Source: Nitrospinota bacterium (GTDB lineage: Bacteria > UBA8248). From it: DNA of 17,801 bases. Positions 9,001 to 17,801 of this stretch are shown one piece after another. Within the stretch, counting starts at the first letter, position 1; every line of letters begins with the position of its first letter. Made by a program: the position numbers. The DNA lies in assembly GCA_046581755.1 (NCBI GenBank), contig JAYGFR010000045.1:1-17801 (forward strand), given 5' to 3'.

Positions 9001-12000
9001 GGGCACCGTGGTGAACAGCCGCTTTCCGGCGGCGGTGGCGGGTGGAAACGTCGAGACCAGCCAGCGCATGGTGGACGTGATCCTGGGGGCGCTGGCCAAG
9101 GCGTGTCCCGGGCTGGTCCCGGCGGCATCGTGCGGCACGATGAACAATCTCTCCATCGGCGGAATCGACCCCCGGCCTGGAGTGAGGCAGGGCAGGCCCT
9201 TCGCTTACTACGAGACGACCGGGGGCAGGATGGGGGGCGGCCCGGCGGGCCCCGGCGAGGACGCCATCCACACCCACCTGACGAATACGATGAACACCCC
9301 CATCGAGGCGCTCGAGCACGCCTATCCCTTCCGGGTGCGGCGCTACGGGGTGCGGCGCGGCAGCGGTGGCCGGGGCCAGCACCGTGGAGGGGACGGCATC
9401 ATCCGCGATATCGAACTGAGGACGGACGCAACGGTCTCGTTCATGACCGAGCGGAGGGAGATGGCCCCCTATCCGCTCGCGGGCGGGATGCCGGGGAAGA
9501 AGGGGCGGAATTCGATCCTCAGCGGTAAAAAAAGAATTCCCGTGTCCGGCAAGGCGCGCCTCGAAGTCCGGGCGGGAGATGTGATCTCACTCGAGACGCC
9601 GGGCGGCGGCGGATGGGGGAAGCGCCCCGCGAGGCGGAGGAAGAACTGATCGTACGCCGGGAAGGCGGGGCGGTTGAAGCCCGAAAATCCGCTCCCCACA
9701 ACGCGCCGGATCCATGTATAATAGAATGGTATTTAGAAAGGGAGCGAATGGACGGTGCGGCTGATCCCGTATGATTCGGGTTCGGCCGCATTTTGTTGTT
9801 GTGAACCCTTTGGTTGTTGTGAATCCTTTGAGGCTGGCCGGCGATGGCTGATGGATGCGTGCTTTACCTGAACGGCGAAATCATCGAAGAGAGCCAGGCG
9901 CGCATTTCTCCATTCGACCGGGGGTTTCTCTGGGGAGATGGGGTGTATGAGATCACGCCCTGCTTCGATGGCCGCCTTTACCGGCTCGAAGATCATATCG
10001 ATCGGCTCTACCGCTCGCTCCGGTACGTGCGCATCGAACCGGGGATGACGCCCGGGGAGATGGAGCGGGCGACGCTCGACACCCACAGGGCAAACGAAGG
10101 CCGCCTGGAAGAGGGGGCCATGTACCGCGTCGGCCACTGGGTGACGCGGGGGGTGGACGATTTATCCATGGCGGCGGGCGCAGCGCCGAAGGCGACGGTT
10201 CTGATTTTCTGGCGGCTGGCCGACAGGGAGAAAGTCGCCCAAAACGCGCGCGAGGGCATCCGCCTCGCGGTGACGGCCACCCGGCGGACGCCGCCCGAAT
10301 GCGTCGAGCCCCGCGCCAAGGTCACGAGCAAGATGAACCAGATTCTCGCCGAACTCGACGCGGCGGCGAGCGGATCGCTCTCGCTCATGCTGGATATTCA
10401 CGGAAACGTCGCCGAAAACTCGGTGGCGAATTTTTTCATCGTCCGGGATGGCGTCCTCTGGACGCCCCCCGGGCGGAACATCCTCGAGGGGGTGACGCGC
10501 AAGTCCGTGTTCGAACTGGCCAGCCGGCTGGGCATTCCGGTCGAGGAGCGCAACTTCACGATGTACGATGTGGCACAGGCGGAAGAGTATTTTATTACCT
10601 CGAGCGCGATCTGCGCCATGCCGGTCAGGGAAGTGGACAGTTTCCGCCCCAAGGCAGGGTCGCCGGGTCCGGTTACGCGGCGGCTGATGGATGCCTTCAC
10701 CGAGGATACGGGCTACGATTTCCAATCGCAGCCGGCGGCCGGGGCGAAGGTCCGCCCGCAGGGTTAAACAGGCTCCCGCGCGCCGTCCGGATCGGGCGCG
10801 GGACGATGGGAGAGAGGGAGCGATGCCCCCCTATTACACGACGAAAGACAGCCTGGAGCGCATGAAAGAAAAGGTGGAGGGGATTCACCACCGCCTCAAA
10901 ACCGAAGTGGCCCAGGAGCTCGCCAAGGCGGCGGATTATGGAGACCGGAGCGAAAACGCCGAGTGGGATGCGGCCCTGGAACTCCAGTCCAACCTCAAGT
11001 ACGAGGCGATCCGGTTGATGGACAAAATTCAGGAGGCGGAACTCATCGAGGAATTGCCCATCGGCGGCGACCGCGTGACCATCGGTACCGAAGTGACCCT
11101 GCTCGATTTGGATAAGGATGAAGAGATCACCTACAAAATTCTCGGCGAGCAGGAGAGCGATTTCAAGAACGGAATCCTCTCCTTCCAGGCGCCCCTCATC
11201 CGCGGGCTTATGCAGAAAGAACCCGGCGATGAGGTGCTGGTGAAGCTTCCGGGCGGCACGCGGAATTTCGAAATCGTCGATGTGAAGAAAATCGATTTTT
11301 CCTGAGCACATGAAAAGGCCGGACCTCAGCGATCGTCTTCTTGCCTATCTCATCTTCGCGGCCGCCATCGTAATCGTTACCTGGTTCGCCCTCCTTCCGG
11401 ACCGTGCCCCGGCCTGGAAGCTGCCAGGAAGCCCGCGCCTTTACGTCATCGCCGTTGTGGGTTCGCTCCTCCTTTTGGTCTCGGTCCTGTTCGTGTTCGC
11501 CAAGCGGACCGGACGGTGGGGCTCCCCGGTGGGCTGGTTCACGGCCCATGTCGCGGCGGCCGCTGCGGGCAGCGTTCTCGTGGCGATCCATTCGGCGGGC
11601 TTTCTGCGTTACGTCCCGGCCCTCCTGCTGGTGGCCCTGCTGGGATTGGCCGCGCTCGGGGTCTGGGCGCGTATCCTGCTCTCCCGCCGGATATCGGCCA
11701 CCTTCGCCGAAAAGCACGAAAGCTTCGCGCCCGTCTCGGGTGCTGACCGGGAGCGCCTCGGGGCGATCATCCGGGAAAAAGAGGGCCTGCTCGAAAAACT
11801 CTCGCCGGGGGCGCGGGAAGGAACGTTTTCGCCGGCCCTGGGGCACTGGCTGGCGCGTCCGGGCCTGACGCGAGCCTATGCACGGCTCGTCCGGGAGGAA
11901 AGCGGCCTCCTGGGGACGCGGGGGATGGTCCCCGCCGCCCAGGCCTACTGGCGCCGGCTCCACATGGGACTGGCCGCGCTCTTCGTCCTGGGCCTCATCG

Positions 12001-15000: not shown

Positions 15001-17801
15001 GCGCCCGGTCAACTTCCTGACCGACAAGAACCAGCGCGATCCGATCTCGGACCAGACCAATTTCAAGAGTCTGCTCTGCCGCGTATCGAAGGCGTGAGCG
15101 AAAAGCACCGGCCAGCGGATTTTTAATCCTATTTACCGGCAAACTTTCGGCCAACGTCTGGCAAACGTTGCGCCGATGTCGCCTGAGGCGATGGATTATT
15201 ACTCGATCGGGTCCGGGACGACGGGAAGGCACACTTCGGTGCGAAGCTCGGCCTCGGGCGCCTCGCGCGGGTCGTTCAGGTAGCGCTCGGCGACCGGCCC
15301 ATCCCCCCGGCGGAAGCCGCTGTGGGGAAGCCAGTCCTCCACCAACCGCTCCAGCGTCCGGCCGATCTCATCGTAGGCCCCCTCGTGGATCGCAACGGCG
15401 TACCAGCCGCCGGGCATCTCGGTTTCGGTGAGTCCCTCGGGGAGAGGGTTTCCGGGATGCAGGGTCCAGCAGGCTTCGTAGCTCTCTGTCCCACTCCGCA
15501 GCCCGAAGGGGGGCCCCGCGTCGGGCAGGCCTTCGCAGCGGAGATACAGCCTCCCCCAGAGTCGCCCGGTGCTCTCCGGAGTGATCGCCTCCTCGAGGGT
15601 CAGCCCTGCCCCCCGGGCGGGCTCCCGTTTTTCGACCCTGACGCCGGCCATTGATGTCATGTGGCCATCTCCCGCTACCGAAAAAAGACCAGCCGCACGC
15701 CGGCGATGATGGCAATGAGGCCCGACGCCCGGCGGATGGCCAGGCCCGGAAGGTTCCGCAGCAGGTAGGCGCCGATGAAGCCGCCCACGATGGCCCCGGC
15801 GCCAATTAAGGCGGCGTATCTCCAGTGCATGTTTCCGTGGCGGATGTTTTCGATGGAGGCGGCCCCGACGTTGAACAGGGAGGCCATCATGGAGATGGCG
15901 ACCACCTGCTGGGCCTTGATGCCGGGAATGAGAAAAAGGGCGGGAACCGTGATGATCCCCCATCCTACGCCGGTCGAGGCCTGGAGGGTTCCCACTACGA
16001 GGCCGAGTACGACCAAGCCCACTGCGTAGATGTCCAATGTGATTTTCCTTTCGGGTCTTGTTCCGGCAGAGCCCGGAGGCCCGCCTATCGGGTCTTGTTC
16101 CGGCGGAGCCCGGAGGCCCGCCTAAATCGGATAAAAAATAGCCGGCAACAGCGCGCTCACCTTGGCGGCGTCGCCCTCGATCCGGAAGGCGCCGGAGTTT
16201 TTCTTCGCTTCGGCGTCGGCGCGCCCGGTGGACATCAGAAGGAAATCGCTGGCCGAGGCGAAGAGGGAGACGTCGAAATTCCCGGACAGATCGGTGAGGC
16301 CGGAGGCCTTTCCGTTCACGACCGATATCGCCCAGACGTGGCCCGTGTCAGTCGTCTCGAAGCGGAACCTGCTGTCCGGTTTGGGATCGGGCCGGGTGTT
16401 GTACATGATCGGAAAGCGAATGTGGAGATTCCCCGCCGCCACCTCCAGGGCATCGGGATGAAGCGAAGCCTCGGGCTCATTCCGGATGTCCCATTCGTGG
16501 AGGAGAAATTCGTATATCCGCTGGATGACGAAGTAACGGATGGGGATAACGCCGCGCCTGTGCCAGGCGGATTTATCGAAATCTCCGGGCTCCAGTGTCC
16601 GGTACAGCGCGATGAGCTCCTTCGTATCGCTCTCGAATTTGTCGACGAGCGCATTCCCATCTAGGGCCGCGACCTCGTTCATCCGCGAGGTGCGAATTTC
16701 CATGAACTCCTCCCGGGTGGAGGCCCCGAGGGGGAACCCGTGGTTGCCCTCCAGCCCGTTGCCGACGGTGGATGCGTAAAATTGCGCGCCCAGCGTCAGG
16801 TGGCCCACGATTTGGGAGGCGCACCAGTCCGGACAATAGGTCTCCCGCTTCCAGCAGGCCTCGCTGAATTCCCGAAAACGCGCGGCGAGGCGCTCGCATT
16901 CGGAGTTCGTGGTCGAAATCGTCAAATCCATCGCATCATCCTTTAGAGCCATGCAGTCTCCCCGTAATCAATCCGGTTTCGGTATGGGCATGGGCCCGGC
17001 GGGATTGTCCGCCCGGCACGGTTGTGCGAACGTGTGTGCTCGCAGCCATCATACACCACGCATTGGCGGACGGCCCGCCTGCCGGGCCACATCGGCGGGC
17101 CATCCCGGCGGGGCCGCCGGCCCGCGGGAGGAGAAATATAGCCATGCTCTACGAGGTGCGGGCCTACACGTTTACGATAGGAAGCCTCGATGAGGCGGTG
17201 GAGGATTTCGGGAGCATCATCGAGGAGCGCACAAAGCTTTCCCGCTTGATCTGTTTTTTCCGTTCCGCCATCGGCGATCTGGACCGCATTTTTCATATAT
17301 GGGAGTACGAAAACGCGGCCCACCGCGAGCGCGTCCGGGCCGAGGCGCAGTCCCAGGCCTGGTGGCCGCCCCTCAAGGCCGAGAAAATCCTTTATCAGCA
17401 GACCCGGCTGATGACGGCCGCGCCTTTTCGCGCCTCCCCCCGCACCGGCGCCATGGGGAGCGTCTATGAGGTCCGGAGCGACACGATCCACACCGGGACC
17501 ATGGGAAAAATCAGCGCTGCCTGGGACACGCATCTTCCCGCCAGGGAGGAACTCTCTCCCCTCGCCGCCGCCTTCGCGAATCCGGCGAACGAGTTCGCCT
17601 CGGGCATCCTGAACGAGTTTTTGCACATCTGGCCCTACCGCGACCTGAATCACTGGGCCGAGGTGGACGAGGCCGCCAATCGGCTCGCCGGCTGGCGGGA
17701 TTGCTCCAACCCCTTTTTGAAGGCGCGCAAATCCGAGATCTGGGTTCCGGTGGAATACTCTCCCATGCACTGAGAAGGGTGCGCCTGAATATTTTTGGGT
17801 G

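What a model noticed while it worked through the whole genome (the two positions that open the first line are those of the whole stretch)
11310..15097. Undescribed two-gene molybdoenzyme module: diheme cytochrome b plus an Fe-S-first (B-A fused) DMSO-reductase-family enzy [...]
g03106 (257 aa, no Pfam, four invariant His in two pairs 14 residues apart) overlaps g03107 (1012 aa), in which a PsrB/DmsB-type 4x[4Fe-4S] subunit is fused IN FRONT of a bis-MGD molybdenum domain with a Cys ligand (GTDPFC) and no Tat signal. We read it as a cytoplasm-facing, quinone-linked oxidoreductase with its own diheme cytochrome b anchor, probably acting on a sulfur or selenium compound as its nearest kin (PsrA/PhsA, MES) do. 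This would be a new, widespread clade and architecture of the DMSO reductase family, with a new membrane-anchor family.
Evidence so far: NCBIfam: all hits far under cut (best Fdh-alpha 304/666, PhsA 257/694 bits; residues 26-186 match DmsB/TtrB); best Swiss-Prot 29%, best PDB PsrA E 1e-64. 621 protein clusters at E<=1e-200; the 120 listed are 68-98% identical over 97-99% of the length, named ones from Burkholderiales and Alphaproteobacteria; 0 of 120 match a Tat motif, 112 of 120 have GxDPFC. In 42 of 42 loci >=9 kb, mostly Betaproteobacteria, the membrane gene lies directly upstream on the same strand; no other neighbour in more than 16. His80/94/218/232 invariant in 20 of 20; its model gives diheme cytochrome b proteins (CybB Z 9.0, b561 8.6, 4D2 9.1) among helical bundles. 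Membrane gene in 33 of 41 family genomes, includin [...]
(Added by a program. Inside this text positions count along the whole contig: contig position 1 is position 1 of the stretch shown here. "Call 12" and the like, gene names such as g00115 and contig names such as C1 are that model's own, and its searches are not shown. The text may have been shortened before it was handed on; [...] marks where a part breaks off. The agent that wrote the report below was given it as the finding of a first reader that could run no searches.)

Follow-up and report, generated by a model that had tools for sequence, protein, structure and literature searches.

The report
Fused molybdoenzyme with two-haem membrane anchor
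Two neighbouring genes, kept together in many uncultured bacteria and in one cultured marine strain, encode a molybdenum-type enzyme fused to its iron-sulfur wire and a small membrane protein that is predicted to bind it and likely holds two haems; the pair likely oxidises a small sulfur compound inside the cell, but its substrate is untested.

Summary
Real; this scan reported the same family at least seven times on other DNA. A five-helix protein with His80/94 and His218/232 precedes a Tat-less DMSO-reductase-family enzyme whose four-cluster B subunit is fused in front. Corrections: the enzyme starts at TTG 12125 (990 aa), so the genes do not overlap; the anchor is a branch of a wider unnamed, ferric-reductase-like family (paralogue in the same genome); the nearest kin found are unstudied Tat-exported enzymes of Nostoc and Streptomyces (33%), not PsrA; a second subclade has TEP[YF]C. 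New here: a complex model docks the anchor's haem-proximal face on the terminal Fe-S cluster (0.84 against best control 0.00; mark reached by 116 of 157 solved, 2 of 215 mismatched pairs); both genes share the same 31 of 61 related genomes; a cultured carrier exists (Pseudohalocynthiibacter aestuariivivens RR4-35 plasmid), where the pair sits in a betaine-type oxygenase cassette with a YeiH sulfate exporter. Architecture about 0.9. Sulfite or sulfinate oxidation is my best guess (0.35): 34 of 46 proteobacterial carriers already have a SoeC-like gene, and xsc is missing from the window's lineage. No description found in print.

The parts
11310..12083 (+). Membrane anchor, 257 aa: five long helices with a large loop between helices 4 and 5; likely di-haem cytochrome b
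   Evidence: model pLDDT 85, helices 8-31, 42-67, 73-94, 103-134, 209-238; 36 of 47 family members hit DUF4405 weakly, 9 Ni_hydr_CYTB, 2 Ferric_reduct
11547..11591 (+). His80 and His94 on helix 3 (first pair of predicted haem ligands)
   Evidence: invariant in 102 of 102 and 47 of 47 aligned proteins
11961..12005 (+). His218 and His232 on helix 5 (second pair of predicted haem ligands)
   Evidence: at least 90% conserved in 102 sequences; His218 invariant and His232 at least 90% in 47 more distant ones
12115..12127 (+). Ribosome-binding site GGAGG and likely TTG start of the molybdoenzyme (corrects 12059)
12125..12658 (+). Fused B domain (residues 1-178): 16 Cys in four groups, four predicted [4Fe-4S] clusters; C68, C91, C94, C97 region docks on the anchor in the complex model
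   Evidence: (all 16 Cys invariant in 54)
12659..12835 (+). Variable linker between B and A domains, Gly-rich in this copy
   Evidence: low pLDDT 182-204, unconserved
12836..15097 (+). Catalytic A domain: FS0 (C245, C248, C252, C280; K282), metal ligand C375 (13247-13249), invariant R346, R418, R537, N540, Q541, H542, R674, H882, H884, H888; bis-MGD fold
   Evidence: fold Z 39.5, rmsd 2.2 A over 661 residues to NapA, Z 33.2 to PsrA

Best explanation
The two genes encode a Tat-less DMSO-reductase-family enzyme with its four-cluster iron-sulfur subunit fused in front and a five-helix membrane protein that is predicted to bind it and likely holds two b haems; the pair likely works on the cytoplasmic face as a dehydrogenase that would oxidise a small sulfur(IV) anion (sulfite or an organosulfinate) and pass the electrons to the membrane quinone pool. 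Steps: substrate binds in an Arg-lined pocket (inferred from invariant R346, R537, R674); oxygen-atom transfer at the Cys375-bound Mo or W (family knowledge); electrons run FS0 to FS1-FS4 in the fused B domain (family knowledge; clusters shown by sequence); FS4 sits against the anchor next to His80/His218 (predicted); they cross by a proximal and a distal haem (inferred from the His pattern) to quinone (inferred, no site identified). Odds: architecture about 0.9, oxidative direction about 0.55, sulfur(IV) substrate about 0.35.
For: Fusion, 16+4 cluster Cys and C375 invariant in 54 of 54; no Tat motif in 119 of 119. Anchor directly upstream in 77 of 81 genome loci and 49 of 80 metagenome loci, every miss lying at a contig end; both genes in the same 31 of 61 related genomes; one relative lost most of both in a single deletion. 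Complex model: 0.84, best of 3 controls 0.00; the mark was reached by 116 of 157 solved complexes and 2 of 215 mismatched pairs (counts hold only roughly: own alignments, haem riding along; solved FdnHI/NarHI-like complexes may help the pass); runs agree in at least 76% of contacts, partner pLDDT at least 87; contacts join residues 65-74 and 88-114 of the B domain to anchor K65, R66, F77, R121, R215. His pairs on helices 3 and 5 as in ferric-reductase-domain proteins (NOX2 His101/115, 209/222; PMC3591440, passages), whose long forms carry a cytoplasmic dehydrogenase module. R537 aligns with Arg332 of PsrA and with the Arg of a SoeA-like MRGISAHSNG stretch; SoeA is a cytoplasmic, Cys-ligated sulfite oxidiser (PMC10100899 Table 1). 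In P. aestuariivivens RR4-35 the pair follows the oxygenase reductase in a tight operon (gaps 46 and 2 nt) inside a cassette of dinuclear oxygenase, Rieske protein, BetB (750 bits, cut-off 593), LysR and a YeiH-like putative sulfate exporter; oxygenolytic cleavage of a sulfonate betaine would give betaine aldehyde plus sulfite (inference). xsc is in 32 of 46 proteobacterial carriers against 5 of 60 non-carriers.
Against: 34 of 46 proteobacterial carriers already have a DmsC-family gene and both inspected are soeABC-like operons (label from gene order and recalled motifs), so a second sulfite oxidiser would be redundant there. The xsc excess is lineage-bound: 0 of 61 genomes around the window's own pass the cut-off and none of the five alphaproteobacterial carriers G061, G124, G163, G237, G327 has it. 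aprA passes in 1 of 5 and soxB in 0 of 5 carriers of the window's family. The betaine-oxygenase cassette occurs without the pair in four other plasmids, only one of them with YeiH, and a sulfate ester such as choline-O-sulfate would release sulfate, not sulfite. Overall similarity to the SoeA-like protein is low (25% over 444, E 9e-29). The nearest sister enzymes lie, in 1 of 2 loci read, in an arsenic-resistance cluster. All other recurring neighbours are housekeeping genes. The anchor's fold scores (Z 7-9) are in the range of unrelated helical bundles.
Confidence: 0.35

Rival explanations
1. Same architecture, opposite direction: a NarGHI-like, quinol-fed cytoplasmic reductase of an oxyanion or oxide (arsenate, antimonate, a methylated arsenic oxide, selenate or selenite, an S- or N-oxide), serving detoxification or repair.
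For: NarGHI is the known cytoplasm-facing enzyme with a two-haem anchor (PMC10609526, passages). The nearest kin found are Tat-exported stand-alone enzymes (33% over 830 residues, E 6e-139), and the Streptomyces copy is co-directional with arsR, ACR3 and arsO. The pair behaves like a core housekeeping function in its lineages. Arg-rich pocket suits any oxyanion.
Against: No arsenic gene among the recurring neighbours of the family itself; the Nostoc sister has only a GNAT gene beside it; the sister lacks R418 and R537, so its substrate may differ. If the quinol site is at the outer haem, the step costs proton-motive force and low-potential acceptors such as arsenate would be hard to reach from ubiquinol (inference).
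Confidence: 0.25
2. A water-dependent hydroxylase or dehydrogenase for a small organic acid or onium compound, for example an intermediate of betaine-type catabolism.
For: The only catabolic context found is a betaine-compound cassette with choline-type ABC transporter, BetB and oxygenases; in Mesorhizobium the same cassette sits with betaine-demethylation genes and no sulfur gene. A CoA-acylating aldehyde dehydrogenase follows the enzyme in 13 metagenome loci. Two subclades with different ligand loops, and two copies in some genomes, suggest related but distinct substrates.
Against: Known carbon-hydroxylating members use Asp or Ser, not Cys (PMC10100899 Table 1); no pathway gene travels with the pair across lineages.
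Confidence: 0.2
3. The anchor does not use quinone but carries electrons across the membrane to a periplasmic acceptor (cytochrome c, metal or oxygen), as ferric-reductase-domain proteins do.
For: His layout of the ferric-reductase type; the paralogue in the same genome is flanked by multihaem c cytochromes; a conserved C-terminal WWH tail specific to this branch lies on the far side.
Against: No periplasmic partner is encoded with the pair in any locus set.
Confidence: 0.1
4. A polysulfide, thiosulfate or sulfur reductase in the manner of PsrA/PhsA or bacterial SreA.
For: Best solved relative by sequence is PsrA (E 1e-64) and Arg332 is kept; bacterial SreA is cytoplasmic and Cys-ligated.
Against: PhsA model 257 of 694 bits; by fold NapA and formate dehydrogenases score above PsrA (Z 39.5 against 33.2); no Tat signal, no NrfD-type anchor, no sulfurtransferase among recurring neighbours.
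Confidence: 0.1

Closest known systems
NarGHI, respiratory nitrate reductase A (E. coli)
   Same: Cytoplasm-facing catalytic and four-cluster subunits on a five-helix, two-haem b anchor (PMC10609526 passages; helix count recalled).
   Different: Cys ligand and all-Cys FS0 instead of Asp and His; B fused in front of A; anchor has no NarI Pfam hit and carries its His pairs on helices 3 and 5; no NarJ-type gene among recurring neighbours.
SoeABC, cytoplasmic sulfite:quinone oxidoreductase
   Same: No Tat signal, Cys ligand preceded by Phe, Arg at the R537 position, membrane-bound.
   Different: 25% identity over 444 residues only; three separate genes with a DmsC-family anchor; the two systems coexist in many genomes.
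PsrABC/PhsABC polysulfide and thiosulfate reductases (PDB 2vpw)
   Same: Best solved relative by sequence for the A domain (E 1e-64) and among the best for the B domain (E 1.4e-23); Cys ligand and Arg332 kept.
   Different: Periplasmic, separate subunits, other anchor; PhsA model far under cut-off.
Unstudied Tat-exported stand-alone MopB enzymes of Nostoc, Streptomyces and others (WP_179069484.1, WP_329212327.1)
   Same: Nearest sequences found: 33% over 830 residues, shared NQAET, DDR and C-terminal motifs; large family.
   Different: Tat signal, no B domain, no anchor gene beside them, no R418 or R537; one copy in an arsenic-resistance cluster.
Ferric reductase domain (FRD) proteins: NOX, MsrQ/YedZ, STEAP (for the anchor)
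   Same: Four His on helices 3 and 5, first of each pair near the cytoplasmic partner.
   Different: Spacing 14/14 against 14/13 in NOX2, a loop of about 75 residues between helices 4 and 5, no sixth helix, no PF01794 hit at cut-off.
ActB and QrcB-like fusions
   Same: A MopB-fold domain joined to its iron-sulfur subunit (ActB; PMC10100899).
   Different: ActB is periplasmic and has lost the cofactor; its order is A then B (order recalled).

Membership tests
DMSO reductase (MopB) superfamily | Molybdopterin and dinucleotide-binding domains, bis-MGD fold | tested here: met
   PF00384 162 bits (cut-off 24), PF01568 83 (26.8); fold Z 39.5, rmsd 2.2 A, 661 aligned
DMSO reductase (MopB) superfamily | FS0 cluster and an amino-acid ligand to the metal | tested here: met
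   C245, C248, C252, C280, K282, C375 invariant in 54 of 54; C375 aligns with the PsrA Cys
DMSO reductase (MopB) superfamily | Bound Mo or W bis-MGD | not testable with these tools
   needs protein
PsrA/PhsA/SrrA | Score over the family model | tested here: not met
   257 of 694 bits
PsrA/PhsA/SrrA | Periplasmic, Tat-exported catalytic subunit | tested here: not met
   0 of 119 with a twin-arginine pattern in the first 40 residues
PsrA/PhsA/SrrA | Active-site Arg (PsrA Arg332; role recalled) | tested here: met
   aligns with invariant R537
SoeABC | Cytoplasmic Cys-ligated catalytic subunit | tested here: met
SoeABC | Orthology to SoeA and a DmsC-family anchor | tested here: not met
   25% over 444 residues, E 9e-29 to a SoeA-like protein (label from gene order and recalled motifs); anchor has no PF04976 hit
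SoeABC | Sulfite:quinone activity | not testable with these tools
   needs assay
Formate dehydrogenases | Family score; His directly after the Cys/Sec ligand (motif seen as LCH in 7qv7) | tested here: not met
   304 of 666 bits; ligand followed by A, G, D or S
NapA/NasA nitrate reductases | Score over family models | tested here: not met
   NasC 212 of 1100, NapA 148 of 904, although NapA is the top fold match
NarGHI | Asp ligand, His-ligated FS0, NarI-family anchor | tested here: not met
   Cys ligand, four-Cys FS0; no Pfam hit for the anchor
MES (metallopterin-dependent ergothioneine synthase) | C-terminal cysteine desulfurase domain (PMC9516567 passages) | tested here: not met
   no such domain; direct sequence comparison with MES was not done
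FRD superfamily (anchor) | Four His on TM3 and TM5 | tested here: met
   H80/H94 on helix 3, H218/H232 on helix 5
FRD superfamily (anchor) | PF01794 at its cut-off | tested here: not met
   2 of 47 members, best E 0.02
FRD superfamily (anchor) | Fold match to NOX or STEAP | tested here: inconclusive
   SpNOX Z 7.8 (rmsd 4.4, 121 aligned), STEAP4 Z 7.2, among unrelated bundles up to Z 9.3
Di-haem cytochrome b (anchor) | Two bound b haems | not testable with these tools
   haem rode along unscored

The most novel reading that the evidence does not exclude
An undescribed two-component class of respiratory molybdoenzyme: a B-A fused catalytic chain wired to a ferric-reductase-like di-haem anchor, a membrane module not known from any studied DMSO-reductase complex, that oxidises a sulfur(IV) compound which SoeABC does not handle (an organosulfinate) or reduces an organoarsenic oxide, and so fills a missing step of the aquatic sulfur or arsenic cycle in abundant uncultured lineages; testable at once in P. 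aestuariivivens RR4-35.
Probability: 0.25. Interest if true: 0.8.

Novelty: new variant of a known kind. Interest (0 to 1): 0.55.

Why it matters
New branches of the DMSO reductase family have repeatedly meant new reactions in element cycles. This one is strongly conserved (about 50% or more across two subclades, 66-84% across phyla within one), is near-core in the window's family (30 of 37 genomes) including 2-Mb streamlined members, and uses a subunit order and an anchor type that I did not find described for the family. A cultured carrier with the pair in a regulated catabolic cassette turns an orphan of uncultured bacteria into something that can be grown, deleted and assayed. The overall plan (catalytic domain, four-cluster wire, haem anchor) is the familiar one, so it is a new variant rather than a new kind, and its weight depends on the substrate.

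Tried and rejected
Overlap of the genes and 1012-aa length: rejected. 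Neighbour guilt by association: greA and an aminotransferase in the window's lineage (12 of 81 loci), thiG, trmB, hemW, mutY and an acyl-CoA synthetase in Burkholderiales, recA, recX, alaS, lysC, ppk2, mutS in the second subclade are lineage synteny; my six-frame ORF clustering also produced many shadow frames, which I ignored. TauE genes (window 15675-16037; 18 metagenome loci, 5.4 kb upstream) are not in the operon and were not counted as support. Sequence search of the PDB with the anchor profile found nothing (best E 0.83); Foldseek found nothing at E 0.001; the wide fold search did not separate haem proteins from other bundles. ESM Atlas gave only the family's own cluster (0.97) and leads under 0.9, one named 'Ferric reductase like'. 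The idea that the B domain came from the anchor's paralogous cNMP-ferredoxin partner was dropped: it is no closer to it (E 1.8e-12) than to other B subunits of the genome (E 2e-17). Expression: short contigs of 95-99% identity to both genes occur in RNA libraries of three marine studies, but also to the neighbours, and contigs cannot show transcription. Promoter and terminator scans were at chance level. A sample of 300 Pseudomonadota genomes held neither family nor sister besides the centre; 4 of 400 Alphaproteobacteria held the family. No tree was built and no positive-inside count was computed, so 'clade' and 'sister' rest on pairwise scores and topology rests on the missing Tat signal plus the complex model. 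Papers: ten searches, seen as listings, showed no description of this family; Wells et al. 2023 (sections 5 part 1 and 8, passages) mention unnamed Cys-ligated branches in their MAG tree, whose labelled supplementary trees I did not see, so the clade may sit there unnamed. The library lacks most subscription papers.

Full report
Observation. The upstream protein (11310-12083, 257 aa) has no Pfam or NCBIfam match. The downstream protein has a DmsB/PsrB-type four-cluster block followed by the FS0, molybdopterin and dinucleotide-binding domains; every NCBIfam family is far under its cut-off and the best solved relative is PsrA at E 1e-64. The reported overlap is an artefact of taking the first start codon: GGAGG at 12115-12119 precedes TTG 12125, relatives keep this signal in register and homologues start there. 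The enzyme is 990 aa and lies 41 nt after the anchor. Residue numbers below use this start.

The pair is one unit. In the 80 best of 388 genome loci plus the window, the membrane gene is directly upstream on the same strand in 77 of 81; the four misses are at contig ends. In the 80 best of 83 metagenome loci found with a distant member, it is upstream in 49, and the 31 misses all begin within 103 nt of the contig start. Among 61 genomes drawn around the window's own, the same 31 hold both genes, 30 of 37 within its family, including four genomes of about 2 Mb; in one of the 31 a single in-frame deletion has removed most of both genes. Record titles name Nitrospinota, Betaproteobacteria/Burkholderiales and Alphaproteobacteria, and Gammaproteobacteria for distant anchors. 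The family is patchy: 4 of 400 sampled Alphaproteobacteria, none of 300 sampled Pseudomonadota.

The enzyme. All 16 B-domain Cys, the four FS0 Cys, K282 and the metal ligand C375 are invariant in 54 aligned members (chosen from 119 full-length copies by a filter at 88% identity). None of the 119 has a twin-arginine pattern, so by family knowledge the cofactor-loaded protein stays in the cytoplasm. There are two subclades about 53% identical: 75 copies mostly with TDPFC (the window's) and 44 mostly with TEP[YF]C, plus one frameshifted copy binned with them. The model has the bis-MGD fold, top match NapA (Z 39.5, rmsd 2.2 A, 661 aligned), PsrA at Z 33.2; the fold does not pick a family. The His that follows the ligand in formate dehydrogenases is absent. 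Invariant R537 aligns with Arg332 of PsrA and with the Arg of the matching stretch in a SoeA-like protein; R346 and R674 are invariant too. I read this as a pocket for a small anion (inference). The nearest sequences found are not PsrA: in one search of plasmids, stand-alone Tat-bearing enzymes of Nostoc and Streptomyces score 423 and 394 bits, the next hits 215 or less, PhsA 199 (33% over 830 residues). They form a large unstudied family; the Streptomyces copy lies in an arsenic-resistance cluster, the Nostoc copy beside a GNAT gene. No tree was built.

The anchor. The model shows five long helices and a helical loop between helices 4 and 5 (pLDDT 85). His80/94 (helix 3) are invariant and His218/232 (helix 5) at least 90% conserved in 102 and 47 sequences. 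This is the layout of ferric-reductase-domain proteins, His101/115 on TM3 and His209/222 on TM5 of NOX2, with the first of each pair holding the cytoplasm-side haem (PMC3591440, passages). Members hit DUF4405 (36 of 47, best E 3.8e-6), prokaryotic cytochrome b561 (9) and Ferric_reduct (2), all weakly; fold scores do not separate haem proteins from other bundles. The family is wider than this module: 324 representatives at E 0.001 grade into distant forms, and the window's own genome has a paralogue (E 4.6e-9, both His pairs aligned; hhalign probability 90%) that follows a cNMP-binding protein fused to a similar four-cluster domain and lies between multihaem c cytochromes. So the anchor is a new branch of an unnamed family, and in both settings it sits beside a DmsB-type domain.

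Do they bind? A complex of the anchor with residues 1-320 of the enzyme, two haems riding along, scored 0.84 against 0.00 for the best of three controls; that mark was reached by 116 of 157 solved complexes and 2 of 215 mismatched pairs, counts that hold only roughly here; runs agree in at least 76% of contacts and the partner's pLDDT is at least 87. Likeness to solved Fe-S/cytochrome b complexes may help such a pass. The contacts are specific: B-domain residues 65-74 and 88-114, around C68, C91, C94 and C97, meet anchor K65, R66, F77, R121 and R215, which are conserved and lie just before His80 and His218. That Cys set is the membrane-proximal cluster FS4 of DmsB-type subunits (recalled). The predicted wire is therefore Mo, FS0, FS1-FS4, proximal haem, distal haem. 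No quinone site was identified.

Substrate. Recurring neighbours are housekeeping genes that differ by lineage. One exception is useful. The only plasmid of 72,556 with both genes is pRR4-35_5 of the cultured Pseudohalocynthiibacter aestuariivivens RR4-35 (53% and 38% identity). There the pair closes an operon behind a LysR gene and an oxygenase reductase, divergent from an amidohydrolase-fold oxygenase, a Rieske protein, BetB and a YeiH-like putative sulfate exporter, with a choline-type ABC transporter nearby. The oxygenase belongs to the dinuclear group of AibH and SfbO (E 2.7e-87 and 7.6e-79; PMC10811679, parts 1-2 of 3, where natural substrates are unknown). Hydroxylating a sulfonate betaine would give betaine aldehyde and sulfite, which the molybdoenzyme could oxidise for export as sulfate; this is inference from one locus. 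Against it, four other plasmids carry the cassette without the pair, only one with YeiH, and a sulfate ester would need no sulfite oxidase. Genome content is mixed: xsc in 32 of 46 proteobacterial carriers against 5 of 60 non-carriers, but the carriers are mostly close kin, none of five alphaproteobacterial carriers from the class search has it, and none of the 61 genomes around the window's own does. A DmsC-family gene is present in 34 of 46 proteobacterial carriers and in 0 of 14 from the window's lineage; the two inspected are soeABC-like. aprA passes in the window's genome only (1 of 5) and soxB in none. I therefore keep sulfur(IV) oxidation as the leading guess at 0.35, with an organosulfinate as a way round the redundancy with Soe, and give 0.25 to a quinol-fed reductase of an As, Sb, Se or S/N oxide, 0.2 to an organic substrate, and 0.1 each to export to a periplasmic acceptor and to a Psr-like reaction.

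Known and novel. It works like NarGHI in layout and perhaps like SoeABC in chemistry, and is a member of neither, nor of PsrA/PhsA, Fdh, Nap/Nas or MES (membership table). Ten paper searches showed no description; Wells et al. 2023 list no such lineage in Table 1 but note unnamed Cys-ligated branches in their MAG tree, whose supplementary trees I did not see. This scan has noted the family at least seven times in other genomes; those notes agree on the architecture, two suggested sulfite, and none that the look-ups returned names the cultured carrier. Verdict: real, a new variant of a known kind, interest 0.55.

Noticed in passing
L169 (G000 contig C399, about 2700-13400): A gene run of multihaem c cytochromes, a porin-like ORF, an FAD/NAD-[2Fe-2S] reductase, a cNMP-binding protein fused to a four-cluster ferredoxin, and a paralogue of the anchor: a possible cAMP-linked transmembrane electron conduit.
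   Followed up: partly
L082:11911-14427 and L083:11812-14337: A large unstudied family of Tat-exported, stand-alone Cys-ligated MopB enzymes in cyanobacteria, actinobacteria and planctomycetes; the Streptomyces copy lies in an ars cluster with ACR3 and ArsO.
   Followed up: partly
L081:12995-19118; L181, L182, L183, L184: A conserved cassette of dinuclear oxygenase, Rieske protein, reductase, LysR, often BetB and a betaine transporter, sometimes YeiH, on 59 plasmid records including S. meliloti pSymA; substrate unknown, perhaps choline-O-sulfate or a sulfonate betaine.
   Followed up: partly
L189:1388-1927 (G004): An in-frame deletion joins the first 46 codons of the anchor to the last quarter of the enzyme, followed by a stop: joint decay of both genes in one genome of the same genus.
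   Followed up: yes
L185-L188, L191: In several genomes of one genus 250-470 nt of palindrome-rich, repeat-like DNA of varying make-up has entered between anchor and enzyme while the ribosome-binding site and TTG are kept.
   Followed up: partly
L190:677-4021 (G016): The B domain carries an apparently identical tandem repeat of about 130 residues; an assembly artefact or a recent duplication.
   Followed up: no
L014/L065, L024/L070, L041/L066, L044/L068, L053/L071, L057/L069: Six Burkholderiales assemblies hold two copies of the whole pair on different contigs.
   Followed up: no
window 15199-16037, - strand: A GyrI-like protein and a half-length (120 aa) TauE/SafE-family ORF converge on the enzyme gene; the ORF next to the enzyme recurs in 13 loci, nearly all of the window's lineage.
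   Followed up: no
window 5997-9649, + strand: Hydantoinase/oxoprolinase A and B genes, then a class IV aminotransferase and greA, upstream of the pair; greA and the aminotransferase are syntenic only in the window's lineage.
   Followed up: partly
G000 C27:9977-11812 and C22:17744-19129: The window's genome has aprA over the cut-off and a SoxB-like gene under it, both not found in four relatives searched.
   Followed up: no
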